IMG/VR virus record: IMGVR_UViG_3300031539_000014
DNA length: 64,000 bases
Reading direction: 5' to 3' (one strand)
From: a virus
The translations under genes and the position numbers were made by a program. The first letter of the stretch is position 1; each line of letters opens with the position of its first letter. The notes beneath the pieces were generated by a model that was given only the letters and a program-made list of their open reading frames with translations, was not told the origin of the DNA and did not search any database. Below, piece after piece: positions 42,997-61,585 of the stretch.

Positions 42997-43335
42997 TGGT
43001 GGAGATGGCCGGACTCGAACCGGCGTCCGCATAGATTAATACTAAACATTCTACGTGTGTACCTGATATCTAAATTTTCGCCTCATTTACCGCTATCAGT
43101 AGCTATTCTATAAGGGCTAGTCCTTTATTTTCGTGAATAGGGTGGGACAGTTCTATTCCTTATTCTATTTTCCCCAATACTTTTATTTATCAAACAGAAA
43201 AATTTCTATAAAAGTTGCGGCTAGGCCGCTAATGCGTAACTGTTGTCAGTTAAATTAGTGTTGCCGTTTTACGAGTTTACAACAACTCGACACGCTTGTT
43301 AAGTTTTTGTCTTTACGTCGAATCCTTTCATCCCC
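42997..43335 (-). ncRNA. ssrA: tmRNA, predicted tag (A)DNSYALAA
   Basis: 5' GGGGAUGAAAGGAUUCGAC; 3' T-arm and CUCCACCA; internal uuaacu-GAC AAC AGU UAC GCA UUA GCG GCC UAG. Confidence 0.93.
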
Positions 43336-43336
43336 A

Positions 43337-43411
43337 TGGTTGCGGGGGCCAGAATCAAACTGGCGTAGTCTGGCTTATGAGGCCAAACGGGTAATCAACA
43401 ACCTCCCCGCC
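43337..43411 (-). tRNA. tRNA-Met(CAT), initiator-like acceptor stem, atypical
   Basis: GCGGGG/CCCCGCAACCA acceptor with 1:72 mismatch; CU-CAU-AA loop; lacks three consecutive G-C anticodon pairs. Confidence 0.75.
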
Positions 43412-43521
43412 TTTTTTCCCCAGGCCTGCCTTTTGGCGACGTCCGGACAGTCGGCAGATCGCTACTTTTGCCTGGGGAAACATTGTAAATTTTCAATTAT
43501 TGAGAACTTTGTAAATAAAGA

Positions 43522-43608
43522 ATCAACGATACGGGACCTGAACCCGTATACGATCTTGAGGGCTGCAATTTACTGATCACCCTGTCTACCATTCTTACTG
43601 ATAGCCGT
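43522..43608 (-). pseudogene. Degenerate tRNA-like sequence (Leu/Tyr type)
   Basis: T-arm ACGGG-UUCAGGU-CCCGU and GGUAGAC D-loop, but irregular anticodon arm. Confidence 0.4.
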
Positions 43609-43883
43609 CCTACCTAAGAGCGTGCAGCTACAAATAGGGCGCACGGATGCAGGCGCGTCTCCAAAACATTCCGCCACGTTGTCTTTATTTACATAAAATG
43701 ATCAATATTGTGCTATTACGCCAAAGGTTAAAACATCAGATGTTTCATAATCTCTTGACTACCCTCTGCAACTCTTTTGCCTTTATTGTTTTAAAGTCAC
43801 GGCTCATGGTCACGGAGGGAGAGATAACCACTCTTTAAAGGAAATGGACAATAACCTCCATTGGCTGCTTTTAAGCCTACCTC

Positions 43884-44111
43884 TTATTGATCATATGTTT
43901 TCAAATAATATTCTATAAGTTCTTTTGTAGGCTTTATTCCTACATAAATTGGAATTATGGTTAAGCCCCAAATGCCGTGTGATATTAAAGATATTAATAT
44001 CAATAGCGGCACACCAACAGCTAACCATCGTATTGTGTCGTCCATTAGACCACGATCATAAAATATTCTAACTATTGTTAAGACTGACACTAGTAAATCA
44101 AACAATACCAT
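43884..44111 (-). CDS. Hypothetical membrane protein
   Basis: 75 aa, hydrophobic. Confidence 0.45.
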   Translation of the reverse strand: MVLFDLLVSVLTIVRIFYDRGLMDDTIRWLAVGVPLLILISLISHGIWGLTIIPIYVGIKPTKELIEYYLKTYDQ

Positions 44112-44347
44112 TTGTTATTACCCTTTCTTTTACCACATTTATTTATATTTTTTATTTGTAAATTCGGTGGGGCCTCTGCATTTTTCATCAGAGTGACAAG
44201 CAAGGCTGCCCTGAAACTAAACACAAACAAAAACTTTTACAGCAAAGTTTGGTGCTTATTGAGAAATGACATTAAATTGTCAAATACTGTAACCCTTAAT
44301 CAGTTCCTACACGTTGCGTGAGCTTTAGCCCACCCCCAATTTTTTAA

Positions 44348-44420
44348 CGACGAAGGTAGGAATCGAACCTACGTATCGTTGGTTAACAGCCAACTGCTCA
44401 GTCCTCTTAGCTACTCCGTC
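44348..44420 (-). tRNA. tRNA-Asn(GTT)
   Basis: Cloverleaf, GUUGG-CU-GUU-AA-CCAAC. Confidence 0.9.
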
Positions 44421-44464
44421 AACTTAACCGTAATCTTGCGTAATACCCATTCATACATCCTTTA

Positions 44465-44539
44465 CGGGACTTACGGGATTCGAACCCGTGATCTCCTGCG
44501 TGACAGGCAGGCGCGGTCTCCAAACTACGCTAAAGCCCC
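44465..44539 (-). tRNA. tRNA-Asp(GTC)
   Basis: Cloverleaf, CCUGC-CU-GUC-AC-GCAGG. Confidence 0.92.
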
Positions 44540-44593
44540 TTTAAACAATTTCATTGGATTTTTTAAACCTAACTTTATTAATTTTGTTAAACT

Positions 44594-45142
44594 TTATAGT
44601 AAAACAACTCCAGCATCCACCATGTTATAATAAAAACTATCTGGCGTTGTTCCAATATCTCGAGTATGAGACATCAATATGTATGTTACGAAACCTGCTT
44701 TAGCGGCCTGCATGGCAGTATATTTTACACAAAATTTAAGAGCTACACCACACACAAAAACCGCCCCAACTCCCAGATCTTTTAATTGAACATCAAGACC
44801 CGTATGATTAGTTCCATCATTATCCGAAAATGGTCCATAAGGATGTGATTCTCTGTCAGTTCCTTTTTTAATACGAATTGTCTCCCCTCTTGAACAAGGA
44901 TATAGCTCCGGATAAAGTTCTGCTCCAAATGTGCTCTGCACACAATGCTCTGGCCAATCTTTTATGAAAGAAGTATGGTCTTTTGGGTGCCAGTCCACAG
45001 TATACACTATTACGTCATATACAGGCAGGTCTCTATTTATCAATGGAATTATTTCTTTAGCATTAGGCACTGATAAAGCCCCGTCTGTTCTTACAAAATC
45101 ATTTTGCATATCTACTACAAAGAGAGCATTTTTTTTCAACAT
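44594..45142 (-). CDS. pncA: Nicotinamidase
   Basis: VVDMQNDF, DWHP, WPEHC, KKG, GVALKFCV isochorismatase-family motifs. Confidence 0.9.
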   Translation of the reverse strand: MLKKNALFVVDMQNDFVRTDGALSVPNAKEIIPLINRDLPVYDVIVYTVDWHPKDHTSFIKDWPEHCVQSTFGAELYPELYPCSRGETIRIKKGTDRESHPYGPFSDNDGTNHTGLDVQLKDLGVGAVFVCGVALKFCVKYTAMQAAKAGFVTYILMSHTRDIGTTPDSFYYNMVDAGVVLL

Positions 45143-46287
45143 CTTAATATTTCCTTACAAAGATTTATTTCATTTTTGTTGCCCGTATGTTTATTTATAT
45201 CGTCAGATAATTTAACAGTGGGTAACCATTGTTTATTTCTTCCAAACACTGCGTCTAATTTAATAACTATGTTTAAAGGTGTTGCTCCGACATCATTGGT
45301 CAGATTTGTTCCAATTCCAAAAGCACACTTTATTCCTTTTTCATCACATTGTGCTTTTAGTCGTAAGGCTAAATCAATATTTAAACTATCAGAAAAAACA
45401 ATAGTTTTAGTAGACGGGTCAATCCTGTGTTGTTTGTAATGTTTTATAATCTTATCAATGTAAGCAAAAGGATCACCGCTGTCCTGGCGTACCCCATCAA
45501 ATAATTTAGAGTATAGAGTATCAAAACTCTGCAAGAAGACATCGCTGGTATATGTGTCAGTAAGGGCAATGCCTAATTTTCCTTTGAAGATGTTAGCCCA
45601 ATTTTTTAAAGCCATATAATTTGCTGAATTGTAACCATACTTAACAGCGTGGTACATAACCCATTCGTGAGCATGCGTGCCGATTGGTTTTATATCTTGG
45701 TGATAAGCTAATCGTACATTACTTGTACCAACTAAAGAACCTTTTAAGGCTTTAATTACAGTTTCGTGATTATCATAAGAATATCTTCGACGAGTGCCAA
45801 AATCAGAGACTGTTAATTTATGGCACTTTATTCTTTGGGCTTTGTCTAAATTTATTTTTTGGGTAACGTCTCTGGAATATATCGGGGTTTTTATTGTTTG
45901 AAAATAAAATTCAGATATAGTAGCTAATAAAGGTACTTCCCACAACACAGCTCTATACCAGGGCCCTTCTACAATAATTTCTATATTACCACAAGGAAAT
46001 TGCTGTATTTTAACCTCATTCGGATCGAATACATAACCACGTAAGAAATCAAGATAAACAGGACTTAAAAACGGGCATGTCTCTATCAACCAATAACAGG
46101 CTCTTTCAGATAATGTGTATTGCACCCAGGAACTAATTTCTGCTTTTAAAGATTTAGCAAAATTATCTGGAAAATTAGTTCTGCCTCTATTGTGAAATTT
46201 ATATCTAACAATAGATCTTGGAAAATGCTGACAAATGGCCTGTTGCATGGTAAATTTGTATAAATCGTTATCTAGTATCCCACGCAT
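45136..46287 (-). CDS. pncB: Nicotinate phosphoribosyltransferase
   Basis: DNDLYKFTMQQA, DFGTRRR, GTHAHEW, LTDT, RQDSGDP, KLSDD..K. Confidence 0.93.
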   Translation of the reverse strand: MRGILDNDLYKFTMQQAICQHFPRSIVRYKFHNRGRTNFPDNFAKSLKAEISSWVQYTLSERACYWLIETCPFLSPVYLDFLRGYVFDPNEVKIQQFPCGNIEIIVEGPWYRAVLWEVPLLATISEFYFQTIKTPIYSRDVTQKINLDKAQRIKCHKLTVSDFGTRRRYSYDNHETVIKALKGSLVGTSNVRLAYHQDIKPIGTHAHEWVMYHAVKYGYNSANYMALKNWANIFKGKLGIALTDTYTSDVFLQSFDTLYSKLFDGVRQDSGDPFAYIDKIIKHYKQHRIDPSTKTIVFSDSLNIDLALRLKAQCDEKGIKCAFGIGTNLTNDVGATPLNIVIKLDAVFGRNKQWLPTVKLSDDINKHTGNKNEINLCKEILRC

Positions 46288-46322
46288 TTAATTTCCTTTC
46301 TTTATTACAACTAATTAAGATT

Positions 46323-46619
46323 TTAAACTAAATCATCTTCTTTTTCGAAATTGAACTGATCATGATATTCTTCAGGAATTAACTGTCTGTACCAACTAGG
46401 CAACAAACTACCATCAACAGACGCTAGACAAAGTTCCCTTAGAGTTAGTGTAAATAGTTTGCAGTTTTCACTATGTTTACATTCACTACAAGCATTTTCA
46501 GAATGAACGTTTTTAAAACCTTTACACCAAGCTGTCCCCATCATTATAATTATCTTGCAGGCCCTTGGAAAATTAGATTTTAATTTATTTGTAAATTTGT
46601 CTTGTTCTTTTATTTTCAT
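46323..46619 (-). CDS. Hypothetical Cys-rich protein
   Basis: 98 aa, GGAGG RBS, CxxC motif. Confidence 0.5.
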   Translation of the reverse strand: MKIKEQDKFTNKLKSNFPRACKIIIMMGTAWCKGFKNVHSENACSECKHSENCKLFTLTLRELCLASVDGSLLPSWYRQLIPEEYHDQFNFEKEDDLV

Positions 46620-46632
46620 ATTTTCCTCCTAC

Positions 46633-46710
46633 TGGCGGGCCTACTAGGGTTCGAACCTAGACATCTTCAGTTTTGGAGACTGATATGTTAACCAGTTACA
46701 CCACAGACCC
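46633..46710 (-). tRNA. tRNA-Trp(CCA)
   Basis: Cloverleaf, CU-CCA-AA loop, encoded CCA end. Confidence 0.9.
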
Positions 46711-47280
46711 TAATTTAAATTTATTTTTTTGTTTAGTTAATAATCTTTTCATTACAATTTTACCTCTATGCATTCTGGTTCTTACTGTAACATTGGATGT
46801 GTTCATTTGATCAGCTATATCTTCTGGCTTAAGTCCTACAAAAATTTGTAATAAAAGTGGTTCTTTGTAAATATCCGGCACTTCCGCTAAGGCGGCCACT
46901 ACTTCGTCGGATAAATAATGTTTTAATAGAGACTCAAGCTTTACATAATTTGTTTCAGCCCCTAATAAATTTGCACCATAGTCGTCATATGAATTATCCG
47001 AGGAGATTATTTCTTCCGTATAATCAAACAACGGAAGATCACAATGTGCACGCAATCTACTGCTACTGAAGAATGTGTAAATAGTGTTGGTCATAATTGT
47101 ACGTAACCAGGAATATGGTTTAGTTTGCGGTGTATACTGATCCTTGTGTATAAAAGCTTTGTACAATGTTTCCTGTACAAAATCTTCAGCTGTTTGCGCG
47201 TTTTTTAAAATACAGTAAGCTGTTTTGCACAATCTTTTTCTAAAAGGCATAAAAGTGTCAACAAACTCTTTCGAGTCCAT
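46696..47280 (-). CDS. ECF-type sigma factor
   Basis: AEDFVQETLYKAF, WLRTIMTN (region 2); EDIADQMNTSNVTVRTRMHRG (region 4); ATG 47280 with RBS. Confidence 0.88.
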   Translation of the reverse strand: MDSKEFVDTFMPFRKRLCKTAYCILKNAQTAEDFVQETLYKAFIHKDQYTPQTKPYSWLRTIMTNTIYTFFSSSRLRAHCDLPLFDYTEEIISSDNSYDDYGANLLGAETNYVKLESLLKHYLSDEVVAALAEVPDIYKEPLLLQIFVGLKPEDIADQMNTSNVTVRTRMHRGKIVMKRLLTKQKNKFKLGSVV

Positions 47281-47302
47281 ATTTTTTCCTTTCTTTTTTA
47301 AG

Positions 47303-47376
47303 TACAGCCGGAGGGATTTGAACCATCGGCCTCCTGATCCACAGTCAGGCACTCTAGCCAGCTGAGCTACGGCTGC
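47303..47376 (-). tRNA. tRNA-His(GTG)
   Basis: Cloverleaf, CU-GUG-GA loop. Confidence 0.85.
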
Positions 47377-47555
47377 GGTTTATATTGTGTTCTACGAAAA
47401 TTTTTCCAATTTCGATCAACTGATCTGGGAGAATTCTCCCCTTTATGTGGTGGTCATATTAAACAGTGTAAAGTTATGCTGGCAACATATTGTTTATATG
47501 CACGCTTCCATACTTGTGCGTTATCGGTAGTTTTTAATTCTTTATTATATGACAT
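47367..47555 (-). CDS. 62-aa protein with in-frame UGA (selenoprotein candidate or pseudogene)
   Basis: AAGGAG RBS; MSYNKELKTTDNAQVWKRAYKQYVASITLHCLI-UGA-PPHKGENSPRSVDRNWKNFRRTQYKPQP; UGA at 47454-47456. Confidence 0.55.
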
Positions 47556-47622
47556 GTCTAACTCCTTGTTAAAGGTTAATTAGACATATGAACTTGTATA
47601 TCTCATTTTTATTTCCTCTTTA

Positions 47623-47693
47623 TACACCTGGCAGGAATTGAACCTACGACCACGTGTTTATAAGACACGGCCTCTACCACTGAGTTACAGGTG
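47623..47693 (-). tRNA. tRNA-Ile(TAT)-like with 6-nt anticodon loop
   Basis: Normal acceptor, D and T arms; CGUGU-CUUAUA-ACACG. Confidence 0.6.
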
Positions 47694-47698
47694 TTTAT

Positions 47699-47947
47699 TT
47701 ATAAAGAATTTATTTGATTTTCCATATCTTCATTCGATTTTCTCTCTTGTATAGGAGGAGCGTCTTTTCCACCTAAATTTCTGGGATTTCCACACATATA
47801 GCAAGAACATACTTTAGTAGTGTTGCGTAGATAGCGTTTAAATTCTTTTTTGTGCTCTTCAGAAAAAAAATTCCAGCCTTCAATTCTATGTTCTGACTTC
47901 CTTATACCAATAGTTTGTCTGTGTTTTTTATCATGGGGATGCATCAT
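47699..47947 (-). CDS. Hypothetical Cys-rich protein
   Basis: 82 aa, GGAG RBS, CSCYMCGNPR. Confidence 0.6.
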   Translation of the reverse strand: MMHPHDKKHRQTIGIRKSEHRIEGWNFFSEEHKKEFKRYLRNTTKVCSCYMCGNPRNLGGKDAPPIQERKSNEDMENQINSL

Positions 47948-47968
47948 ACTTGCTCCTGGATAATTAGT

Positions 47969-48149
47969 TTTTTTATTGTACTTGGTGAAATCCTCAGAGT
48001 CTGTGACCGGAAGCTTGTGTTGAGCGTAAGCGATTCACTAGCGGGGGTCAAAAGATCTTGAGTATTTTACTCCATATGTTATTAGTTAAATACCCTTACT
48101 GACGAAACATCAGTTTGCTCAATTTATAATTAAGAACTACAATAAAAAA
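47969..48149 (-). ncRNA. Orphan retron msr-msd-like unit Y
   Basis: a1 48138-48149 / a2 47969-47980 (12-bp perfect); G 48137 opposite G 47981; ACUGA-UGUUUCG-UCAGU. Confidence 0.7.
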
Positions 48150-48152
48150 TTT

Positions 48153-48239
48153 TGGTGTAGACGGTAGGAGTTGAACCTACGATGTTTCTATGTGTCGGTT
48201 CTACAGACCGAGGCGTTCGCCAACTACGCTTACGTCTAC
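48153..48239 (-). tRNA. tRNA-Tyr(GTA)
   Basis: Cloverleaf with long variable arm, CU-GUA-GA loop, encoded CCA. Confidence 0.9.
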
Positions 48240-48241
48240 AT

Positions 48242-48416
48242 TCATTGTGCTTTTGTATTTGTTTGTGTATACATTATTTAGTGTCGCCGCTGAAACCTGG
48301 AAGGTTTCAAGACATTTAACGCCATCAGTGTTAAATGTCTTCACCAAATATATCTCTGAGATATTAATCTAAATAAAGGGCGAAACACCCTCAGCGCCGA
48401 AGCACATCCACAATGA
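48242..48416 (-). ncRNA. Orphan retron msr-msd-like unit X
   Basis: a1 48409-48416 / a2 48242-48249 (8-bp perfect); G 48408 opposite G 48250; AGGG-UGUUUCG-CCCU; 12-bp perfect hairpin aagacatttaac/gttaaatgtctt. Confidence 0.65.
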
Positions 48417-48496
48417 GTTTATATTTATTTTACAAATGAAAAGGTTACTTTTGCACTATCAGGGTCCCCTGTTTTCATTTTTTTCCTAGTTTTTAA

Positions 48497-48568
48497 AGCT
48501 CCCGAGAGGACATGATCCCCTGACTAAGCATTACAGGTGCTTTGTTTTTCCAACTAAACTACAGGAGC
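48497..48568 (-). tRNA. tRNA-Thr(TGT), atypical
   Basis: Cloverleaf; loop CC-UGU-AA (C33); T-loop AUCAUGU deviant. Confidence 0.6.
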
Positions 48569-48576
48569 TAATATTT

Positions 48577-48837
48577 TTACACGGGTAAATTTAATACAAC
48601 AGTTTTTAAATCTATTTTTAACATCCAATCATCAGGCCATAAATTTTCCAATACTTCTTCGTATTGTTTGGGAGCACCGGCAGACCAGCCGTCGTTTCGT
48701 ACAAAAACTATGTCTGGTCTAGCCGAATGCAAGGCTAAAGCTTTTTCAGGAGACATTGCATCACCATGCTCATTGTATATAACACGAGTTGGGCCAGTAG
48801 TTAATAATTGGACTATTAGTTTTGTTATGTCGGTCAT
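48577..48837 (-). CDS. Hypothetical protein
   Basis: 86 aa, FVRNDGWSAGAP motif. Confidence 0.55.
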   Translation of the reverse strand: MTDITKLIVQLLTTGPTRVIYNEHGDAMSPEKALALHSARPDIVFVRNDGWSAGAPKQYEEVLENLWPDDWMLKIDLKTVVLNLPV

Positions 48838-49003
48838 TTTTTATTTACCATTTTCTGCAAAGCATTGTCAATAATATCGTTGATAAATTTGCGTTCACAT
48901 TCTAAACAAAGTGTAGTTTCTTGAGACGTAAATATACATTGTTTAATTTCTCCGCAGGTATCACATTCTGCTAGTTTTAAATTTCTTCTTTTATACATTT
49001 TAT

Positions 49004-49771
49004 TTAAAAATTTGTTCTATAATAAGCCTTGCCTACTATTGCGGGCACTAACGAATCTATTTTTACCGTATTAGAAATCATTTGAATTGTAAAATCAGGA
49101 GACATCATATAATAAAAATCAATCACAGCATAATGGATTGTATCGGCCCAGATTACTTGGTCTTGGTTATCTGTAAAAATAAATGAATGATAAACTGTTT
49201 GTATGTTATTATCCGTAATACATTTAAAAGCAATATTTGAAATATTGGACCAGTTGCCAGACTCGTCAACAGCTTTAATGGCAAAATAATATAATGTGTC
49301 CGTAAGTCCTGTTATTGTTACTGTTTGTAATGATCCTGCTGTATCTGGAATAGGAGGAGTTGCCCACACTTGAGCTGATAGCCAACTAAGTGAATCAATG
49401 AAAGGAGTTTCTCTATATCTTATATCATAGGTTGTAGCGGTGCCAACAGTAGAATCGTCTCCTGGGGCGGTCCAAGTAAGTGTTACTTCCCACAGATTTG
49501 GATTATACCAACGCAACGGTTCATTTTGTAATTCATTTATTAACGAGTCCCGATAAATTTGTGATGATTCACTAAACAATGAATCAACCATAATTTCATA
49601 AATCCATGGCCTATTATTTAATATTACTCGATAAGCTGCAGAATCAGGTAAATTTACTATGTCCCAATAAATACAAATATTGTTGTGGCTGGTTTCAACA
49701 TATTCCAGTACTGGCGGCTGTGCAAAAACACATACCGCCAATATTGAAACAAATATGATTATTTTCGCCAC
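49004..49771 (-). CDS. Secreted Fn3-domain protein
   Basis: Signal peptide; LTWTAPGDD..VGTATTYDIRY...YYFAIKAVDESGNWS. Confidence 0.8.
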   Translation of the reverse strand: MAKIIIFVSILAVCVFAQPPVLEYVETSHNNICIYWDIVNLPDSAAYRVILNNRPWIYEIMVDSLFSESSQIYRDSLINELQNEPLRWYNPNLWEVTLTWTAPGDDSTVGTATTYDIRYRETPFIDSLSWLSAQVWATPPIPDTAGSLQTVTITGLTDTLYYFAIKAVDESGNWSNISNIAFKCITDNNIQTVYHSFIFTDNQDQVIWADTIHYAVIDFYYMMSPDFTIQMISNTVKIDSLVPAIVGKAYYRTNF

Positions 49772-50130
49772 ACACCTTTACCGCAACCACCAGGAACCTG
49801 AGTATCCACTATTACTGTATCTGAAGCTGGTGACCAATCGACACTTTCATTTAATGCTAAGTCAACGGCTTTTATTCGAATATTAACAGGACCGTCTGCT
49901 GTGGCACTGAATGTGTAAAAGGTGTCGGGAGTAGTAAATTCAATTGGCCATGTCACACCGTAGTCCGTAGAAAATTGAATTCTATAGCGAAGAATATCAT
50001 TATCTCCTGGACCTGTCCAGTCGAATGTTACTTGATTATTGTTAGTAGTTCCACTTTCACCAAGTATTACCGCGGGAATCAAAAGTGTGAAAATAACTGT
50101 TAGAATTATAATTTGGGCTATTTTTTTCAT
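49759..50130 (-). CDS. Secreted Fn3-domain protein
   Basis: Signal peptide; FDWTGPGDN..YRIQFS...IRIKAVD..NES. Confidence 0.75.
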   Translation of the reverse strand: MKKIAQIIILTVIFTLLIPAVILGESGTTNNNQVTFDWTGPGDNDILRYRIQFSTDYGVTWPIEFTTPDTFYTFSATADGPVNIRIKAVDLALNESVDWSPASDTVIVDTQVPGGCGKGVWRK

Positions 50131-50146
50131 TTTTCCTTTTTTTAGT

Positions 50147-50428
50147 TTAAGGGTTAACTTTTATACCTGCCCATCCATCGAGCATATCTTTAGTTAAAAA
50201 TCTTCCAAGATCTTTGTTTTTCATCCCGGATAGTACGTTTTCCTTGATGGAAACTTTTAATAATTGTTTTGAAGGCCTATCTTTTTTTGCTTTTATCCGA
50301 GCCATAACCAGGTTGTAAATTCGTTGCACGGCTCTATTAATTTTGTTTACTTCATCGGTACGACGTGAACGGTAATTAGTATATTTGGCTTTTCTATTTG
50401 GATTAAGTCGGCGCTTTTTTCCTGCCAT
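50147..50428 (-). CDS. Basic hypothetical protein
   Basis: 93 aa, GGAG RBS. Confidence 0.5.
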   Translation of the reverse strand: MAGKKRRLNPNRKAKYTNYRSRRTDEVNKINRAVQRIYNLVMARIKAKKDRPSKQLLKVSIKENVLSGMKNKDLGRFLTKDMLDGWAGIKVNP

Positions 50429-50450
50429 TTTATCTCCTTAGTTTTTAGTA

Positions 50451-50807
50451 TTAAGTTAATAGTAACTTTCTATGTTTTACTGTTTTTGTTGTAACAACTT
50501 TCTTTTTTTGTAGATCTACTTTAGGTGTACGAAAAATTTTACCGCCAGCATAGTCAAAAGCTGATAGACCACTAAGATACCAAATTTCTTGATATTGTTT
50601 ATCAGTTGTTTTTATTTTAGCATATACAGTGCCACCTATATGGCTAGCACGTACCACATCATATTTTCTAAATTTTGATTTTCCTTTTAAATAATCTAAA
50701 GCAAAAATAGCACAATGGTCTTTATACCAGCCTTTAAATTTAGGACGAGCAACATGGCCACCAGCTATTACAAATAATCCGTCTTTGTCTTTTAATATTA
50801 TGCTCAT
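50451..50807 (-). CDS. Hypothetical protein
   Basis: 118-aa ORF; FVIAGGHVARP motif. Confidence 0.55.
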   Translation of the reverse strand: MSIILKDKDGLFVIAGGHVARPKFKGWYKDHCAIFALDYLKGKSKFRKYDVVRASHIGGTVYAKIKTTDKQYQEIWYLSGLSAFDYAGGKIFRTPKVDLQKKKVVTTKTVKHRKLLLT

Positions 50808-50812
50808 AGCAT

Positions 50813-51205
50813 TTATATAGCCGGGTTATAAATTATTCCGTGTTTTATTAACGTCAAATAGTGAGGTTCTTTCCATAACACAGTATAAGGTATTATTATG
50901 TTTGGAATATTTCCAAACTCCAATAAATTATGCATTTCTTTTGCTTTAGCTATATTTACAGAATGAATTATAACACACTCTATCTTATAATCGTGTTCAT
51001 GGTTAGCCAAAAAACGAGCTACGTGAGTACCACAATCGTTGTCGCCCAGATCTCCATCTAAGAAGATAACCTCCGGGTTATTAAGATTTATACAACTAAT
51101 AGCCTGTTTTGAAGTATACGCACTTATGACTGGATTGTCCAGAAATTTTTTTTGAAATTCTGTTTGGCGTTCTACAGAATCGTCTATTATTAAAATTGTG
51201 TTCAT
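50813..51205 (-). CDS. Cyclic-phosphate-processing receiver-like domain protein
   Basis: ILIIDDS.ER...IFLDGDLG...G..VA.FL...VIIHSVN pattern. Confidence 0.65.
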   Translation of the reverse strand: MNTILIIDDSVERQTEFQKKFLDNPVISAYTSKQAISCINLNNPEVIFLDGDLGDNDCGTHVARFLANHEHDYKIECVIIHSVNIAKAKEMHNLLEFGNIPNIIIPYTVLWKEPHYLTLIKHGIIYNPAI

Positions 51206-51209
51206 TTTG

Positions 51210-51593
51210 TTATTTATCGTAAAAAGGTGTATCTAAAGGAACTTCCATGACATGGTATATTTTAAAATGTACCGAATTATCTTTAGTAATTTTTAATTTT
51301 CCGGAGCAACGGAATTTTTTTTCTTCCCAAATTTCACCATCATCAAACTTTCTGTCATAAACAGCGAACGTTATAATCGCGAAATCAGAAATATGGTCGT
51401 AATAATTAATCTCAAACTCTGATCCATTTTTATCTACTACTCGTGATAATCCTTTTTTAATGTGTTTTTCGTACCAGAGATCAATCCCCTCATCATAATC
51501 ATCGCAACGTACACCAGGAAATTTCATGTGCATATGGCCGTCACTGAAATAAATTATTTTATTTTCGCCTTCGTGTGTTTCATATTTATCCAT
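51210..51593 (-). CDS. Hypothetical protein
   Basis: 127-aa ORF with RBS. Confidence 0.55.
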   Translation of the reverse strand: MDKYETHEGENKIIYFSDGHMHMKFPGVRCDDYDEGIDLWYEKHIKKGLSRVVDKNGSEFEINYYDHISDFAIITFAVYDRKFDDGEIWEEKKFRCSGKLKITKDNSVHFKIYHVMEVPLDTPFYDK

Positions 51594-51610
51594 TTTACTT
51601 TCCTTTTATT

Positions 51611-51682
51611 TACCCCTGGGAGGAATCGAACCCCCTTTATGGCGTTAGAAGCACCAAGCCCTATCCAGTGGACGACAGGGGC
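51611..51682 (-). tRNA. tRNA-Arg(TCT)
   Basis: Cloverleaf, CU-UCU-AA loop. Confidence 0.85.
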
Positions 51683-52182
51683 TTTATTATTTTTATTATT
51701 TTTTGTACGCTTGCTTCACCAGAGTTCAACACAGTAAAAGGGATATGATGATTTTCTAAAAGTGCTAAAATCTCATTATCTTTTTGCAGTGCTTGTTCCT
51801 CAGAATGCACTCTTCCAACAGGGTGGTACTGCGTGTGTCTTTGTAAGAAGTAGTTTAAATTCGTATACTTTTCAAATTCTTGCAATATTAGACGATGGAA
51901 CAAATGATTTTTTGTGGCGTCATAAATAGCTGATAAAAGAAGGGGGGAATCCATTAACGCAATGTCTATCTTCCCATCTAATCGTTTTAAACGATGTTGC
52001 TGCTTAGCAAACACATAAATTTGGTCTTTTAGAACTCCGTATGATTCTTCCCACACTTTATCTTTGGCATATTCCTGCACGCACTCACAATTTATTTCTT
52101 GAAACTTCAATTGCGAATATACAGCAGCCGCCATTGTTGATTTTCCTGAATCAGGGCCACCAAAGAAATTAACTACTAGCAT
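51661..52182 (-). CDS. P-loop kinase, NadR/Ttd14 AAA_28-like
   Basis: GGPDSGKST, EYAKD, DSPLLLS, GRVHSEEQA..KD. Confidence 0.75.
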   Translation of the reverse strand: MLVVNFFGGPDSGKSTMAAAVYSQLKFQEINCECVQEYAKDKVWEESYGVLKDQIYVFAKQQHRLKRLDGKIDIALMDSPLLLSAIYDATKNHLFHRLILQEFEKYTNLNYFLQRHTQYHPVGRVHSEEQALQKDNEILALLENHHIPFTVLNSGEASVQKIIKIIKPLSSTG

Positions 52183-52202
52183 AATAATATTATTGGCTAA
52201 AT

Positions 52203-52511
52203 TTAATTTATAATAGTAAACATTACATGTGTTTCAAGTGGGTCATATTGTTTCAAGAATTTATTTATTCTAAATTCTTTTAGTTTTTTTAAGGATGCTT
52301 GTAGTTCGTATTTAGTTTTGATTGATATTCTAAATTTATCTGGTTCTGGGCATTCAAATTCGTCAAGTAATTCTAAAAATATTTCAGAAGTTCGAAAATA
52401 TTTTTTTATCTCTTGATATAGATCGTTTAAAATTTTTACATATTGTTTATTTTCTTGTAAATATGTAAAAATTTTTTTATCGTTTACCAGTTTATATTTA
52501 CACAACTTCAT
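52203..52511 (-). CDS. Hypothetical protein
   Basis: 102-aa ORF. Confidence 0.45.
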   Translation of the reverse strand: MKLCKYKLVNDKKIFTYLQENKQYVKILNDLYQEIKKYFRTSEIFLELLDEFECPEPDKFRISIKTKYELQASLKKLKEFRINKFLKQYDPLETHVMFTIIN

Positions 52512-52872
52512 CCGACTTTTTTACCGCCTTAACAATTTTATGTAATTTAAGCATTATGTCCTGTCCCATAATAAAAGCTTTCTCGGCAGAAGGGTAATAA
52601 CCTCTGCCAAAATCTTTTCCAAAAACAGGATGTGAGACATTAGGTAAATTGCCATACCACAGTTCGTGAGTTTTCGGACCATAGTGGCCTAGTATGTAAC
52701 CAAGATTTTGATTAACTCGCTCTTCGGCCGGCATAGTTACAGGTTCTTTTAAATCTGGGTCTTTTTCAATAGCAAGTTCGTCAGCTAACATATCTTGATA
52801 AGCTTGTTTCATTTCTTCGGTTGTTTTAACTTTATCAATTCGATCATGATAAATTTCTCTGTATGTCTTCAT
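52498..52872 (-). CDS. Hypothetical protein
   Basis: About 124 aa from MKTYREI; NLGYILGHYG motif. Confidence 0.55.
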   Translation of the reverse strand: MKTYREIYHDRIDKVKTTEEMKQAYQDMLADELAIEKDPDLKEPVTMPAEERVNQNLGYILGHYGPKTHELWYGNLPNVSHPVFGKDFGRGYYPSAEKAFIMGQDIMLKLHKIVKAVKKSDEVV

Positions 52873-52889
52873 ATTTACTCTTTCCTCAA

Positions 52890-52961
52890 TACCCACGCCA
52901 GGAGTTAAACCCGGATTTTACGGTTCGTAGCCGAATGCCCTATTCATTGGACGACGCGGGC
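52890..52961 (-). tRNA. tRNA-Arg(ACG)
   Basis: Cloverleaf, CU-ACG-AA loop. Confidence 0.85.
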
Positions 52962-52999
52962 TTTACAAGCCTCCCTATATTTATAGGGAGGCTTGTAAA
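52962..52999. repeat. 18-bp perfect inverted repeat (terminator or processing hairpin)
   Basis: tttacaagcctccctata-tt-tatagggaggcttgtaaa between AAA stop and tRNA-Arg. Confidence 0.8.
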
Positions 53000-53006
53000 T
53001 TAATTA

Positions 53007-54368
53007 TTATTGTTTATTAAGCAGTTCCATTTGTTTAGTCATTTGGCTAGCAGATGCCTGTAAAGCTGCCGCACTTAATTTTAATTTAGTTAGCGGTTTG
53101 TCAGATAAAGAAATTTCTAAAAGTTTACCTCTTTCAACTACCTCTCTGATAACAGCGGGTTGTTGACCAATTAATATTTCGGCGACAGGATTAAAGTCTT
53201 CATTTGCCAGTAAAAGATCTTTTCCATATAGATGAATTAATTTTAAAACAGAATCTTTATTAGGCCTATCTACTATAATTACAGCGTCTAGACGACCAGG
53301 TCTAAGAAACGCTTTATGAATTTTATCCAGATAGTTAGTGGTTAAAACCGTAATTACACTGCGTCCTTTAGTTTCAATACCATCTAAAATATTTAAAACC
53401 AGGTTCATATCTTGATCTCTCTCCACATTTCCAGATTTTAGTTCTGTGGACGATGTCTTAAAATCATGGACAGCCATTAGAGGATCAATGTCCTCACAAA
53501 AAACAACAGCGGGATTATAATATTCGACAACTCTATGTGCGTCTCCGAATTCTTTGGGATCCCTAATATAAACAAAAGTAAATTTATTATCTACAGCCAC
53601 ACTGGCTACCAATGAAGCAATTAAAGATTTGCCGGCGCCATAATCTCCTGCCAATAGCACGCCGCGTTTAGTAGGAATACCAAATTTTTCGCATTCTTTG
53701 GTTCGACGAATAGGCGTTAAAAGATTTGCGATAACCTGCAACTTAACATCATGATTTAATATAATATTTTCTTCTTTAACATTAAGACCAGTCATAAATT
53801 TTATTTCGGGAAAAGGCAATAATTCACCTTCGTGATCTTTATTATCATTTCTGAATCTAACTTCAATAGCTTTACCGGAATAAATAGAATGTTTTTTAAG
53901 ACGTAACCTGGTTTTTTGTAATAAGGTTTTAACAATTTCTGAATATTTTCTTTTGACAGTTATTTGTAATAGTAAAAAAGCACCTCTGGAATCTCCACCT
54001 ATTCCTGTTTCGGCGTAACCGCCTTCCATAGAAGGTAGTGTTATTCTGCCCCAGGGAATTTGAGCTGTTTCGTCTTCTGCGACAGCCACCTGGATCATTC
54101 TGGGCGGCTTATCCCCGAAAAAGCTTGGAGTAACTGCTTGATGTACCATTCCAAATTGTTCCAACAGTGTACAATAAAAAGAAAAGGCGGCATCTAAAAC
54201 AAAATAACCTTTTATTTCTTCAGAGAAGGATACGTTTGTTTCCTCATATTTGTTTTGTTTGTGCAGGGCCTCGATAGCCTCATTATAAGACATGCCTTCT
54301 GGTATTATCAATTTTTGTCCAAATCTTTGGACGTCCACTACTGTAATTTTTTTAGTTTTGTTTTCCAT
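53007..54368 (-). CDS. AAA+ ATPase
   Basis: GDYGAGKS, FCEDID, TTNY, RPGRLD. Confidence 0.88.
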   Translation of the reverse strand: MENKTKKITVVDVQRFGQKLIIPEGMSYNEAIEALHKQNKYEETNVSFSEEIKGYFVLDAAFSFYCTLLEQFGMVHQAVTPSFFGDKPPRMIQVAVAEDETAQIPWGRITLPSMEGGYAETGIGGDSRGAFLLLQITVKRKYSEIVKTLLQKTRLRLKKHSIYSGKAIEVRFRNDNKDHEGELLPFPEIKFMTGLNVKEENIILNHDVKLQVIANLLTPIRRTKECEKFGIPTKRGVLLAGDYGAGKSLIASLVASVAVDNKFTFVYIRDPKEFGDAHRVVEYYNPAVVFCEDIDPLMAVHDFKTSSTELKSGNVERDQDMNLVLNILDGIETKGRSVITVLTTNYLDKIHKAFLRPGRLDAVIIVDRPNKDSVLKLIHLYGKDLLLANEDFNPVAEILIGQQPAVIREVVERGKLLEISLSDKPLTKLKLSAAALQASASQMTKQMELLNKQ

Positions 54369-54383
54369 ATGTTTTTCCTTTTT

Positions 54384-54662
54384 TTAATCTTCTTCTGGCC
54401 AGACAAAGTCTTCACCATATTCTTCGTCTATTTTTTTCTTGGTTACATTAATCGCAATTTCAACCGCACTGCCTGGTGTGTCATTAACTATTTTAATATA
54501 TTTATTCCAACTTATTTCGTCCATTTGAGCATACATATAATCTTGAAAACTTGCAAATCCCTGCCCAGCCAGCCACTCGGTAAATAATTTGGAAAAATCA
54601 ATTGCAATCCCGCCCTCCTTAACAGTTATTTTTACCAGTATTAAGTTCTCTTTTGGCATCAA
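54384..54662 (-). CDS. Hypothetical protein
   Basis: 92-aa ORF. Confidence 0.5.
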   Translation of the reverse strand: MMPKENLILVKITVKEGGIAIDFSKLFTEWLAGQGFASFQDYMYAQMDEISWNKYIKIVNDTPGSAVEIAINVTKKKIDEEYGEDFVWPEED

Positions 54663-54868
54663 TCTTCTCCTTTAGGTTCATGAAAAATTTCATCTTGGCA
54701 CACCTGGCAAAGTTGTGAAATATTAAACTCTTTTCTGCTTAAATCATCTCTAAAATTCTCAGTCTGAATATTGGTCGTGCCACATTTAACGCAACACTCG
54801 CCGTCTGATGTTCTGCCAAATATTAGCTTTTGTAATTCTTTTTTGTTTATATTTGTATTTGTACGCAT
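54659..54868 (-). CDS. Small Zn-finger protein
   Basis: CVKC...FRDDLSRKEFNISQLCQVCQD. Confidence 0.6.
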   Translation of the reverse strand: MRTNTNINKKELQKLIFGRTSDGECCVKCGTTNIQTENFRDDLSRKEFNISQLCQVCQDEIFHEPKGED

Positions 54869-54880
54869 TTTTATCCTCAA

Positions 54881-54963
54881 CGGAAGGAGTAGGATTTGAA
54901 CCCACGGAACTTTCATCCGACTGTTTTCAAAACAGTTCTCTTAAACCACTCGAGCATCCTTCC
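54881..54963 (-). tRNA. tRNA-Ser(TGA)
   Basis: Cloverleaf with long variable arm, UU-UGA-AA loop. Confidence 0.9.
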
Positions 54964-54970
54964 TTTTTTA

Positions 54971-56071
54971 TTATTTAAATCCTTTATTTATCTGCACTGT
55001 TTTCTTACTATTATATATTTCAGCCAAAGAAAATGTGTTAGATTCACTTTCCAGGATAAAAGGTATCTCCAATTTTTCAGATAAATTTTTAGCCTCATCA
55101 AGCGTTAAATTTCTAGTTCGCAGTATATCAAAAGTTCTGCCAGGCCTTAATAGTGCATTATCTATTTTTTGCTCTCCGTGAATATTAGTGGTTATAATTA
55201 TTTTTTTTGATCCAATGTTCAATAATCCATCTGACGCGTTAAGTAGTTTATGCATAAAATAATTATTACCCTCTATTCTGGGGGATAAATTAAAATCTAT
55301 ATCTTCTAAAATAAGTAATTGGCAATCATTATCTATGAAAGCCATAAACAGCTCATCGTGGTCATAAGCTCTTTGACTATTGGAATACATTATTTGAAAC
55401 GATTCATTATTTTTATCTGTTATACTTATGTTAGTCCTAGTTTTCCACTCAGACGCATATTTTTGTACCATGTATTTAATAAATTTAGTTTTGCCTGTTC
55501 CAGGAGGCCCTATTAATAATAGAACCGAGGCTAAGCTAGATCTGTAATTATCCAAATATTTATTTACAGATATGTCAACAAAAGGATATGCCTCATCATA
55601 TATTGTTATTGTATTATTATCATAAAAAGAGCTATAGGTGAGATCGTCTTTATGAACATAATACCATTTATATTCTATAGCTAAGCTACTGTCTGTGTGT
55701 TCTATCAATTCTTGAATTAGTTGATCCTTGATATTTTTTAAATTAGCGTCAGCGTTGTATAATATATCAAAATTTATATATAGCCCAACAGCCTGGTTCT
55801 TATTAGAAATATGTGAAACAATTATGAAATTTTTACTTTCTCCTAAAACAATTGCTCCCAATGGAGTTCTTAATATTTTTCCTATTTTGGCCGACAATAA
55901 GCTAGATGTAAGCTCATCGATAGAACCAAATTTATACCTGATTGGCAAACGTTCTAGTAAATAAAGATTATTATCGATGATGATCCTTTCAACGAACTGG
56001 GCAGATAAATAAGCTATTGGCATAGATATGCCTTCTAACCACGATATTTCGTAATTTGTTCTACACTCCAT
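54971..56071 (-). CDS. AAA+ ATPase (BCS1-like)
   Basis: GPPGTGKT, ILEDID, TTN, RPGR. Confidence 0.85.
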   Translation of the reverse strand: MECRTNYEISWLEGISMPIAYLSAQFVERIIIDNNLYLLERLPIRYKFGSIDELTSSLLSAKIGKILRTPLGAIVLGESKNFIIVSHISNKNQAVGLYINFDILYNADANLKNIKDQLIQELIEHTDSSLAIEYKWYYVHKDDLTYSSFYDNNTITIYDEAYPFVDISVNKYLDNYRSSLASVLLLIGPPGTGKTKFIKYMVQKYASEWKTRTNISITDKNNESFQIMYSNSQRAYDHDELFMAFIDNDCQLLILEDIDFNLSPRIEGNNYFMHKLLNASDGLLNIGSKKIIITTNIHGEQKIDNALLRPGRTFDILRTRNLTLDEAKNLSEKLEIPFILESESNTFSLAEIYNSKKTVQINKGFK

Positions 56072-56114
56072 AAAAATACTCCTTTATTCTTTACCATAAT
56101 AAATATAATTTTAG

Positions 56115-56155
56115 TGCCCCCTGGTAGGATTCGAACCTACGACATAACTCTTAAG
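56115..56155 (-). pseudogene. tRNA 3' half only
   Basis: GAGUU-AUGUC-GUAGG-UUCGAAU-CCUAC-CAGGGGGC; no D arm or acceptor 5' strand found. Confidence 0.65.
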
Positions 56156-56159
56156 ACAT

Positions 56160-56335
56160 TATTTCAAAAAATAAAATTTTCTCGTTATTTAGATTTTAAA
56201 TTTAATGATCGTGAAACTATTGGTCTTAAATTAGATATTTATATCCCTAGTTTAAAACTTGCTTTTGAAATTAATGGTGTTTTTCATCGCAAAAATATTT
56301 TCGGCAAACTTGCTTTTATTAATTGTTTATTGACA
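56160..56335 (+). pseudogene. PD-(D/E)XK (Hef/Vsr-like) endonuclease fragment
   Basis: LKLDIYIPSLKLAFEINGVFH motif, no own start, antisense to tRNA cluster. Confidence 0.55.
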
Positions 56336-56345
56336 AAGAGTTATA

Positions 56346-56418
56346 TTCCTCCTACAAGACTTGAACTTGTTACCCCCAAATTAAAAGTTTGGTGCTCTGC
56401 CAGATGAGCTAAGGAGGA
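56346..56418 (-). tRNA. tRNA-Lys(TTT)
   Basis: Cloverleaf, CU-UUU-AA loop. Confidence 0.9.
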
Positions 56419-56426
56419 ATTATTTT

Positions 56427-56948
56427 TTACGTTGAGGAATGAATCACCACTGTGCCGGCTAACTTTACAGACAGGCCTATGTTTGTTAGGATTAGATTAT
56501 CTATTTTTTCCAATTGAGGTCGTATTATGTTAATGCCCGCGGCAGTAGCTGCTCTACCAAACAGACAAAAATGTTTTGTCTGTTTAAATCCTTTTAATTT
56601 AAGCCTAATCGTATGCATTTCTTCGTAAGATAGCTCATGTTCGTCCTCAGTGGCATCAGGAATATATTTTATCATACTTTTAAACCGGCCTATTATTTTT
56701 AAATAGTTCACGGGCTCGCGTATAATAATATTGCCTGGTGTTTTTATACTGTTGTTTATCCTTTCAAAAATTCCTTGCCAGTCCGCTCGCTGAATGTGAT
56801 GAAAAACATTATCTATCAAAATAATGTCGTATTTATTTATTCCGATATCAAATGTTGCGGCTTCAGCTTCATAAAACGTACACCTACCGCAAACATTGTT
56901 GGTATAAGGTAATTTTTTTGCGTATCGTATTAAATCCGATGGCTTTTT
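56427..56948 (-). pseudogene. N-terminally truncated class I SAM methyltransferase-like ORF
   Basis: Frame extends upstream to a TAG at 56949-56951: YDIILIDNVFHHI...KTPGNIIIREP; motif I not found. Confidence 0.5.
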
Positions 56949-56994
56949 CTACGCGTTAATGCCGCTGGCTTTGCCCGTTATCAAACTTTTTTAT

Positions 56995-57549: not shown

Positions 57550-57576
57550 TTTTTTTTAAAATGGTTTAATGAAAGT

Positions 57577-58233: not shown

Positions 58234-58261
58234 TTTTTCTCTTTTATTGTTTTATGTTAGA

Positions 58262-58346
58262 CGGAAGATATAGGATTTGAACCTATGGGGCTGTTACACC
58301 CTACGAGTTAGCAACCCGTTGCTTTGGACCTCTCAGCCAATCTTCC
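58262..58346 (-). tRNA. tRNA-Ser(GCT)
   Basis: Cloverleaf with long variable arm, UU-GCU-AA loop. Confidence 0.9.
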
Positions 58347-58349
58347 TAT

Positions 58350-60546: not shown

Positions 60547-60559
60547 TTTTTTCCTTTAA

Positions 60560-60632: not shown

Positions 60633-60639
60633 AATATTT

Positions 60640-61577: not shown

Positions 61578-61585
61578 TTTGTTAT

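What the first reader, a model, noticed from the sequence alone, without database searches (positions are those of the whole stretch)
47367..47555. Possible phage-encoded selenoprotein: CxxU motif with SECIS-like hairpin
SEEN: strong AAGGAG RBS; the frame reads H-C-L-I-[UGA]-P-P-H-K-G-E-N and stays open 28 more codons. A GGGA-GAAUUC-UCCC hairpin has its loop starting 17 nt after the UGA with G first. UGA is a normal stop elsewhere here (ATGA overlap at 40385). KNOWN: the bacterial SECIS model places a loop with an early G about 16-37 nt after UGA. I recall small phage proteins with CxxCPPHxGxN...WK...TQY (unverified). INFERENCE: Sec replaces the second Cys using host SelB/tRNA-Sec; the alternative is a recent nonsense mutation or sequencing error.
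Basis: partly seen in the sequence, partly recalled or inferred. Interest (0 to 1): 0.72.

Follow-up and report, generated by a model that had tools for sequence, protein, structure and literature searches.

The report
UGA at invariant cysteine, phage gene
A small gene inside the tRNA cluster of an uncultured giant phage has a real UGA "stop" exactly where about 140 relatives have an invariant cysteine, but the evidence cannot yet tell a freshly broken gene from a selenocysteine codon.

Summary
The gene is on the minus strand (47555..47367), and TGA (47456..47454) is codon 34.

- **Family:** Read through, the 62-aa product belongs to an unnamed family of about 60-aa basic proteins with no Pfam, PHROG, NCBIfam or PDB match. 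The family sits in tRNA arrays of uncultured huge phages.
- **Position of the TGA:** It falls on the most conserved residue, Cys in 105/105 relatives. The 28 codons after it keep every invariant residue.
- **Not a sequencing error:** Contigs from a JGI sample and several ENA/Logan assemblies are 99.99-100% identical and carry the TGA.
- **Hairpin:** A 5-bp hairpin (-7 kcal/mol) sits at SECIS distance. It is unusual at about the 3-5% level and stronger than in any of 37 Cys-type homologues.
- **Possible hosts:** Zixibacteria/Cloacimonadota-like genomes have SelB, tRNA-Sec and UGA-containing SelD and SelW.

Against selenocysteine:
- None of 37 distinct IMG/VR homologues (45 copies) has TGA, and no diverged ortholog of this phage exists.
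- The hairpin loop (AAUU) lacks the G/GU seen in 11 host-lineage SECIS elements; a model built from them scores it about 0 bits.
- The cysteine looks like a metal ligand.
- The window holds no Sec machinery.

Odds: fixed nonsense allele about 0.45, selenocysteine about 0.33, other readthrough about 0.1.

The parts
47562..47567 (-). Shine-Dalgarno AAGGAG, 6 nt upstream of the ATG
   Evidence: Read directly from the sequence. 21 of 55 long genes in the window carry an SD core, against 8% in the background.
47367..47555 (-). Read-through ORF: 62 codons plus TAG. Member of an unnamed ~60-aa basic family, C-x2-C-P-x-H-x-G-[E/C/D]-N ... R-N-W-K-x2-R-K-T-Q-Y-K
   Evidence: Translation. Exhaustive phmmer found 108 relatives. 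Alignment A1. Column counts over 105 relatives. A leave-one-out HMM scores it 92.7 bits.
47454..47555 (-). The 33-codon ORF that table 11 gives, ending at the TGA (protein P0003)
   Evidence: this exact 33-aa product is called on 14 contigs from JGI, ENA and Logan assemblies.
47454..47456 (-). In-frame TGA at alignment column 34, the invariant second Cys of the CxxC motif (Cys in 105/105 relatives). The next base is C (UGA-C)
   Evidence: The DNA is identical in L002-L004.
47427..47440 (-). Hairpin 1: GGGAG-AAUU-CUCCC, -7.0 kcal/mol. The stem starts 13 nt after the UGA and the loop 18 nt after. It is built from the codons GGG GAG AAU UCU CCC (G-E-N-S-P), three of which are rare
   Evidence: The covariance model of host-lineage SECIS scores it -0.1 bits.
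47414..47425 (-). Hairpin 2: GAUC-AGUU-GAUC, only 4 bp and -1.8 kcal/mol. The loop starts 32 nt after the UGA and contains GU
   Evidence: The covariance model scores it -2.6 bits.
47302..47376 (-). tRNA-His(GUG). The last 10 nt of the read-through ORF, including its TAG, lie inside the 5' end of this gene
47623..47694 (-). tRNA-Ile(UAU), immediately upstream. The gene sits in an array of 15 tRNAs plus a tmRNA, all on the minus strand (42997-62665)

Best explanation
The gene is the local copy of a conserved, normally single-copy, ~60-aa basic protein that huge phages keep inside their tRNA gene arrays. This protein probably binds a metal through C31, C34, H37 and E/C/D40.

In this phage lineage the codon for the invariant ligand C34 (TGT or TGC in relatives) has become TGA by a single transversion. 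The allele is fixed in a nearly clonal population sampled several times.

On this reading, translation normally ends at the UGA and gives a 33-residue fragment that lacks the conserved half. At most a trace of full-length protein would arise from near-cognate readthrough at the weak UGA-C context. The downstream hairpin is then coincidental.

**Shown:** the family, the column, the reality of the TGA, and the intact downstream frame.
**Inferred:** that the UGA terminates, and that the event is recent.
For: - UGA is an ordinary stop in this phage, and table 11 gives a dense gene map. No other TGA-split gene exists in the 64 kb.
- TGA at this column is unique. All 37 distinct IMG/VR homologues (45 copies) have TGT or TGC, and a DNA pattern demanding TGA returned only 13 random matches. 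All 105 protein relatives have Cys.
- The population is nearly clonal: the contigs are 99.99-100% identical over 10-11 kb. Fixation of a new allele therefore needs no selection, and an undecayed downstream half is expected.
- The hairpin is short, and its minimum-energy loop AAUU lacks the G/GU present in all 11 SECIS hairpins taken from the candidate host lineages. A covariance model of those scores it -0.1 bits. No Rfam model, SECIS families included, matched at E<=10.
- The E/C/D alternation at column 40 and the H at column 37 point to a metal site rather than a redox CxxC. From my own knowledge, Sec as a plain zinc-type ligand has no established natural precedent.
- The window has no tRNA-Sec or UCA-anticodon tRNA. 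The 735-kb relative LR756501 has no tRNA-Sec above threshold.
- I found no natural phage selenoprotein in the paper library.
Against: - Only 1 of 40 single-base routes to a stop in this ORF hits codon 34, a chance of 1.5-2.5%.
- This is also the family member with the strongest hairpin at SECIS distance: 0 of 37 homologues reach -7 kcal/mol. The chance is 3-5% by the other backgrounds. The two coincidences together are roughly 1 in 1000 under this explanation.
- The hairpin depends on rare codons: GGG 13%, GAG 20%, CCC 11%.
- Broken copies are rare in the family. None of 45 IMG/VR copies has an internal stop.
- The gene is single-copy in five complete 334-735 kb phage genomes, so losing it may not be neutral.
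- All sampled contigs carry TGA, and no Cys allele is on record.
Confidence: 0.45

Rival explanations
1. Selenocysteine. The UGA is decoded by the host's SelB and tRNA-Sec, giving a C-x2-U protein. Hairpin 1, possibly together with the GU-containing hairpin 2, serves as a small, atypical in-ORF SECIS.
For: - The UGA aligns with an invariant Cys, and the downstream sequence is fully conserved: 45 bits for the 28 residues after the UGA. This is the classical Sec/Cys signature.
- The hairpin has the right geometry. Its stem starts 13 nt and its loop 18 nt after the UGA, the same loop distance as the fdhA SECIS of a Cloacimonadota genome.
- The hairpin is the strongest among 38 family members. It is improbable given codon usage. 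It lies in the variable linker of the protein, where RNA structure is free to evolve.
- The host is probably in the FCB group. The phage carries a T9SS-sorted protein whose best full-length matches are Zixibacteria/Cloacimonadota MAGs, and its tmRNA tag ends like theirs.
- Those genomes have the Sec system. The first five tested have SelB, tRNA-Sec and a UGA-containing SelD. A sixth, the one with the best match to the sorting domain, also has a UGA-containing SelD. Five of these six, including that one, have a UGA-containing SelW.
- The allele is fixed in all sampled contigs, and the family is otherwise single-copy and intact.
- Lead only: unverified notes of this scan describe other phage gene families with conserved UGA plus hairpin. 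If true, these raise the prior.
Against: - No second sequence shows the UGA, so there is no covariation.
- The minimum-energy loop has no G. The model of host-lineage SECIS scores about 0 bits. Hairpin 2 has only 4 bp.
- The window holds no Sec machinery, and the host is not identified.
- The Cys looks like a metal ligand.
Confidence: 0.33
2. Tolerated or programmed readthrough with a standard amino acid. The weak UGA-C context lets near-cognate tRNA-Trp or tRNA-Cys insert a residue at low frequency. The gene then makes mostly a 33-aa peptide and a small, possibly sufficient, amount of full-length protein.
For: - The base after the UGA is C. In E. coli this is the leakiest termination context (established knowledge).
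- The phage carries its own tRNA-Trp(CCA) about 750 nt away.
- The downstream frame is intact.
Against: - Trp at an invariant Cys would probably give an inactive protein.
- No readthrough-stimulating structure lies close to the stop; the hairpin starts 13 nt away.
- No other gene in the window uses such a device.
- I did not analyse the tRNA-Trp for a Hirsh-type change.
Confidence: 0.1
3. The 33-residue N-terminal peptide is itself the selected product, making this a shortened new form of the family.
For: The short ORF keeps a strong SD and is called in all assemblies.
Against: - It lacks every invariant residue except C31.
- The untranslated remainder would not stay a perfect family match.
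- No other truncated member was seen.
Confidence: 0.04
4. Sequencing or assembly error at the third base of a TGT/TGC codon.
For: A single base separates TGA from TGT or TGC.
Against: - The TGA is identical in the three contigs whose DNA was fetched (one JGI, two ENA), and the 33-aa product is on record on 14 contigs including Logan.
- The site is not in a homopolymer.
Confidence: 0.02

Closest known systems
Bacterial selenoprotein genes with an in-ORF SECIS read by SelB (prototype E. coli fdhF; small CxxU proteins such as SelW-like/Rdx, PF10262)
   Same: An in-frame UGA stands where homologues have Cys, as the second position of a CxxC motif. The reading frame after it is conserved. A hairpin has its loop 18 nt downstream.
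   Different: - The hairpin has only 5 bp, and its loop is AAUU rather than a G/GU loop on a 6-10 bp stem.
- No ortholog conserves the UGA.
- The gene is in a phage.
- The protein has no thioredoxin-like fold (AF2 predicts three helices with a poorly defined loop), and the Cys looks like a metal ligand.
Stop-codon-recoded phages (genetic codes 4 and 15; described for Lak and crAss-like phages by Borges et al. 2022, cited from my own knowledge)
   Same: A large uncultured phage with many tRNA genes and an in-frame stop codon.
   Different: - There is only one in-frame TGA in 64 kb.
- TGA ends 8 ordinary genes.
- The window has no suppressor tRNA.
- Table 11 already gives a dense gene map.
Small Cys-containing ORFs of phage tRNA regions, e.g. 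PHROG 4499 (phage T5 ORF053-like), to which the neighbouring gene 47699-47947 belongs
   Same: A tiny basic protein with a CxxC-type motif, located between phage tRNA genes.
   Different: - BLASTP finds no similarity to the neighbour at E<=100.
- No PHROG, Pfam or NCBIfam model matches.

Membership tests
SelB/SECIS-decoded selenoprotein gene | In-frame UGA aligned with Cys in homologues | tested here: met
   Column 34 is Cys in 105/105 relatives. All 37 distinct IMG/VR homologues have TGT or TGC there.
SelB/SECIS-decoded selenoprotein gene | Coding conservation continues downstream of the UGA | tested here: met
   The 28 residues after the UGA score 45.1 bits against a leave-one-out family HMM. 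N41, W50, K51 and R54 are all present.
SelB/SECIS-decoded selenoprotein gene | SECIS stem-loop with its apical loop 16-37 nt after the UGA and a G early in the loop (bSECIS consensus, as recalled) | tested here: inconclusive
   A hairpin is present and unusual at 3-5%. However, its minimum-energy loop is AAUU, and the register with G first gives only -4.2 kcal/mol. A covariance model of 11 host-lineage SECIS elements scores it -0.1 bits. Rfam gives no hit.
SelB/SECIS-decoded selenoprotein gene | UGA and hairpin conserved or co-varying in orthologues | tested here: not met
   No TGA-bearing member exists in IMG/VR. Neither the adjacent sigma factor (protein collection) nor the nearby NAPRTase (IMG/VR) has a close relative.
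SelB/SECIS-decoded selenoprotein gene | tRNA-Sec, SelA, SelB and SelD available in the phage or its host | tested here: inconclusive
   None is in the window and the host is unknown. The candidate FCB lineages have SelB, tRNA-Sec, Sec-SelD and Sec-SelW. SelA was not searched.
Unnamed tRNA-array small basic protein family of huge phages | Motif C-x2-C-[P]-x-H-x-G-[E/C/D]-N ... R-[N/S]-W-K-x2-R-[K/R]-T-Q-[Y/W]-K in a protein of about 60 aa | tested here: met
   All motif residues are present once the TGA is read through. The leave-one-out HMM scores 92.7 bits.
Unnamed tRNA-array small basic protein family of huge phages | Location within or next to phage tRNA genes | tested here: met
   The gene lies between tRNA-Ile and tRNA-His. 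27 of 45 IMG/VR copies have a tRNA within 500 nt.
Stop-codon-recoded phage (TGA as a sense codon genome-wide) | Many in-frame TGAs in conserved genes, plus a suppressor tRNA(UCA) | tested here: not met
   There is a single case in 64 kb, 8 genes end in TGA, and the window has no UCA tRNA.

The most novel reading that the evidence does not exclude
A huge phage of a selenocysteine-using FCB-group bacterium (Zixibacteria-like) encodes a selenoprotein. Sec replaces the invariant, probably metal-binding, second Cys of a tRNA-array-associated mini-protein. Host SelB decodes it through a minimal, atypical SECIS built from rare codons in the variable linker of the protein.
Probability: 0.33. Interest if true: 0.75.

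Novelty: new member of a known kind. Interest (0 to 1): 0.45.

Why it matters
**If the UGA is selenocysteine.** This would be a phage-encoded selenoprotein outside the redox families, with Sec in a likely metal site. It would also show that phages exploit host SelB with very small SECIS elements. I found no natural phage selenoprotein in the literature I could search. Unverified notes of this scan claim better-supported cases in other phage families, so this single-lineage case would add a family rather than open the field.

**If it is a nonsense allele.** It is an ordinary loss of an accessory gene.

**Either way.** The work defines an unnamed, widespread, single-copy mini-protein family tied to the tRNA arrays of huge phages. 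That family is a worthwhile target in its own right.

Tried and rejected
**Searches for close relatives that found nothing**
- Megablast of the region against GenBank phages: no match.
- The search for related loci with the protein, IMG/VR: no close relative.
- Word-indexed protein search with the protein: no close relative.
- Exact-flank DNA pattern with NNN at the codon, IMG/VR: nothing.

**Searches for TGA-bearing family members**
- Degenerate family pattern demanding TGA, IMG/VR: 13 matches, all random.
- The same pattern in metagenomes: stopped at 120 rows, all random, and it did not even reach this phage's own contigs. It is uninformative.
- Family profile against 285 genomes of the phylum of the best host-like match (Zixibacteria): only chance-level hits.

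**Searches for relatives of the phage**
- The neighbouring sigma factor and the NAPRTase have none closer than about 50% amino-acid identity.

**Other steps that failed or gave nothing**
- Walking out of the window along longer contigs: no DNA was returned because the sample files are too large. The rest of the phage genome could therefore not be checked for Sec machinery or for other UGA genes.
- No whole genome is held for this window.
- The AF2 model (pLDDT 74.5) has no PDB fold match.
- Genome-wide TGA recoding: rejected.
- Paralogy with the neighbouring phrog_4499 gene: rejected.
- Hairpin as an intrinsic terminator: rejected, because no U-run follows it.
- Palindrome as a repeated motif: rejected, because it occurs only once in the window.
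- A Hirsh-type UGA-reading change in the phage tRNA-Trp was considered but not analysed.

Full report
**1. What is there**

The feature is on the minus strand. AAGGAG (47567..47562) precedes the ATG at 47555 by 6 nt. The frame runs for 33 codons to TGA (47456..47454), then stays open for 28 more codons to TAG (47369..47367). The last 10 nt lie inside tRNA-His (47376..47302), and tRNA-Ile(UAU) lies just upstream. The gene sits in a minus-strand array of 15 tRNAs and a tmRNA.

The window is a 35% G+C piece of an uncultured huge phage. Its NAPRTase is about 50% identical to those of the 735-kb and 462-kb phages LR756501 and LR756500. It carries a fused multisubunit-type RNA polymerase gene and structural genes. 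Table 11 gives a dense gene map. No other gene in the 64 kb is split by a TGA.

**2. The family is real, and the TGA hits its most conserved residue**

An exhaustive phmmer search of 1.84 billion representative proteins with the read-through product gave 108 hits at E<1e-3. Nearly all are 55-120 aa long and cover residues 1-60. The only truncated hit is the 33-aa product of this phage itself.

- The consensus is T-x-N-S-x-V-Y ... C-x2-C-P-x-H-x-G-[E/C/D]-N ... R-[N/S]-W-K-x2-R-K-T-Q-Y-K.
- Over 105 relatives, column 34 (the TGA) is Cys in 105, column 31 is Cys in 104 and N41 is present in 105. Column 40 is E in 64, C in 36 and D in 5. Column 37 is H in 84 and N in 15.
- This pattern suggests a compact metal site rather than a redox pair.
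- The family has no Pfam, PHROG, NCBIfam or PDB sequence match. AlphaFold gives three helices with a poorly defined CxxC loop (pLDDT 74.5), and this model has no PDB fold match.
- In GenBank phages the family occurs only in LR756501/3, where the motif reads HCSRCGYHRGEN.
- In IMG/VR I found 45 copies, on contigs of up to 405 kb. Of these, 27 have a tRNA within 500 nt.
- Five complete 334-735 kb phage genomes have exactly one copy each.

**3. The TGA is not an error**

The exact 33-aa product is called on 14 contigs from JGI, ENA and Logan assemblies. Three contigs were fetched. They are 99.99-100% identical to the window over 10-11 kb and carry the same TGA. No full-length Cys allele is on record. 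The population is therefore nearly clonal, and the allele is fixed in it.

**4. Evidence that bears on selenocysteine**

*(a) Position.* Of the 40 single-base changes that would create a stop in this ORF, one hits codon 34. That is a 1.5-2.5% chance, depending on the transition bias assumed.

*(b) No decay.* The 28 residues after the UGA score 45 bits against a family HMM built without this sequence. The whole product scores 92.7 bits, above all 64 held-out members, although those members were themselves selected by similarity to it.

*(c) The hairpin.* GGGAG-AAUU-CUCCC (47440..47427, -7.0 kcal/mol) starts 13 nt after the UGA, and its loop starts 18 nt after.
- It needs GGG (13% of Gly codons), GAG (20% of Glu), UCU and CCC (11% of Pro).
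- A hairpin this stable at this distance appears in 3.8% of 3000 synonymous recodings.
- It appears after 3.2% of the 1990 TGA triplets in the window, or 5.2% when a G is required early in the loop.
- It appears in 0 of 37 distinct Cys-type homologues, where the best is -6.2 and the median -0.7 kcal/mol.
- Global folding of the 71-nt stretch is not unusual, at z = -0.53.
- A second, weak hairpin, GAUC-AGUU-GAUC (-1.8 kcal/mol), follows with its loop starting 32 nt after the UGA.

*(d) The host.* The phage carries a T9SS-sorted beta-helix protein (TIGR04183).
- Its best full-length matches, at 31-41% identity, are in Zixibacteria and Cloacimonadota MAGs.
- The phage tmRNA tag DNSYALAA ends like the Zixibacteria-type tags ADDYSYALAA and GDDYSYAMAA.
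- All five such genomes first tested have SelB above the curated cut-off, tRNA-Sec above the gathering score, and SelD with an in-frame TGA.
- The genome with the best match to the sorting domain also has a UGA-containing SelD, whereas two Bacteroidetes MAGs lack SelD.
- Five of these six genomes have a UGA-containing SelW-like CxxU gene.
- If the host belongs to these lineages, it can decode Sec.

*(e) SECIS type.* The 11 SECIS hairpins I extracted from those genomes (SelD, SelW and FdhA) have 6-10 bp stems and GUN, GGU or GGUCU apical loops, at -6 to -12 kcal/mol. A covariance model built from them scores the phage hairpins -0.1 and -2.6 bits, and has no hit near the gene. No Rfam family matched at E<=10.

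*(f) No comparative support.* A degenerate DNA pattern for the family that demands TGA at column 34 matched only random sequence in IMG/VR. The same pattern with TGY recovered about 45 true members, none with an internal stop. The phage has no relative closer than about 50% amino-acid identity in the collections. No tRNA-Sec is present in the window or in LR756501. I could not obtain the rest of the phage genome.

**5. Weighing**

Under a random nonsense mutation, two coincidences must combine: hitting exactly the invariant Cys (about 2%) and being the family member with the strongest hairpin at the SECIS distance (about 3-5%). Together they are of the order of 1 in 1000. That would be strong evidence for Sec, but five points weigh against it:
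- The prior for a natural phage selenoprotein is low. My literature searches found none. Unverified notes of this scan claim several, which I treat as a reason not to set the prior near zero.
- The hairpin lacks the loop features shared by every SECIS of the plausible host lineages.
- The residue looks like a metal ligand.
- No second sequence carries the UGA.
- The clonal population makes fixation and lack of decay uninformative.

I put a fixed nonsense allele, null or slightly leaky, at about 0.45 and selenocysteine at about 0.33. Functional near-cognate readthrough at the weak UGA-C context gets about 0.1, a functional 33-aa peptide about 0.04, and sequencing error about 0.02.

**6. Comparison with known systems and novelty**

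The case meets the first two criteria used to call bacterial selenoproteins: a UGA/Cys pair and downstream conservation. It is inconclusive on SECIS and on machinery, and it fails the conservation-of-UGA criterion for lack of relatives. I therefore do not file it as a selenoprotein. It is not a genome-wide recoded phage.

The firm new result is the protein family itself: an unnamed, single-copy, basic, probably metal-binding mini-protein embedded in the tRNA arrays of uncultured huge phages. The UGA allele is a candidate worth one reporter experiment and a deeper metagenome search. It is not an established recoding event.

Noticed in passing
window 47367-47555 (-); IMG/VR loci L018-L123: The ~60-aa basic CxxC...H...E/C...N...WK protein family has no Pfam, PHROG, NCBIfam or PDB match. 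It is embedded in the tRNA arrays of uncultured huge phages: 27 of 45 copies lie within 500 nt of a tRNA, and some loci hold up to 29 tRNAs in 12 kb. It is single-copy in five complete 334-735 kb genomes. A tRNA-related function is plausible but untested.
   Followed up: partly
window 47367-47376: The stop codon of the read-through ORF lies 8-10 nt inside tRNA-His. 5' processing of the tRNA by RNase P would therefore cut off the stop codon and leave a non-stop mRNA, in a phage that carries its own tmRNA (42997-43335, tag DNSYALAA).
   Followed up: no
window 47699-47947 (-): The neighbouring 82-aa protein with the motif C-S-C-Y-M-C-G-N-P-R matches phrog_4499 (E 1.2e-7), another small Cys-containing protein of unknown function. 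BLASTP finds no similarity to the focal gene.
   Followed up: partly
window 10948-12264 (-); loci L124-L179: A beta-helix protein with a T9SS type A sorting domain (TIGR04183) has its best full-length matches (31-41% identity) in Zixibacteria and Cloacimonadota MAGs. This points to an FCB-group host. Those MAGs have SelB, tRNA-Sec and UGA-containing SelD and SelW.
   Followed up: partly
loci L181-L186, L319-L323 (host-like MAGs): The SECIS elements of Zixibacteria-type SelD and SelW genes share a very regular apex, CCAG-GUN-CUGG or CCA-GUU-UGG. The centre of the triloop lies 34 nt (SelD) or 23 nt (SelW) after the UGA. A 23-nt covariance model (R1) captures them.
   Followed up: partly
L001 2980-3318 (LR756501.1): The family member of the 735-kb phage is 112 aa long. 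It keeps the N-terminal half and HCSRCGYHRGEN but has a different, longer C-terminus, and tRNA-Thr follows it directly.
   Followed up: no
window 42997-62665 (-): Fifteen tRNA genes and a tmRNA lie on one strand, interspersed with small ORFs, AAA ATPases, RtcB, and the NAPRTase and isochorismatase-like genes. About 38% of long genes in the window have an SD core, which is unusual for phages of Bacteroidia but compatible with other FCB lineages.
   Followed up: partly
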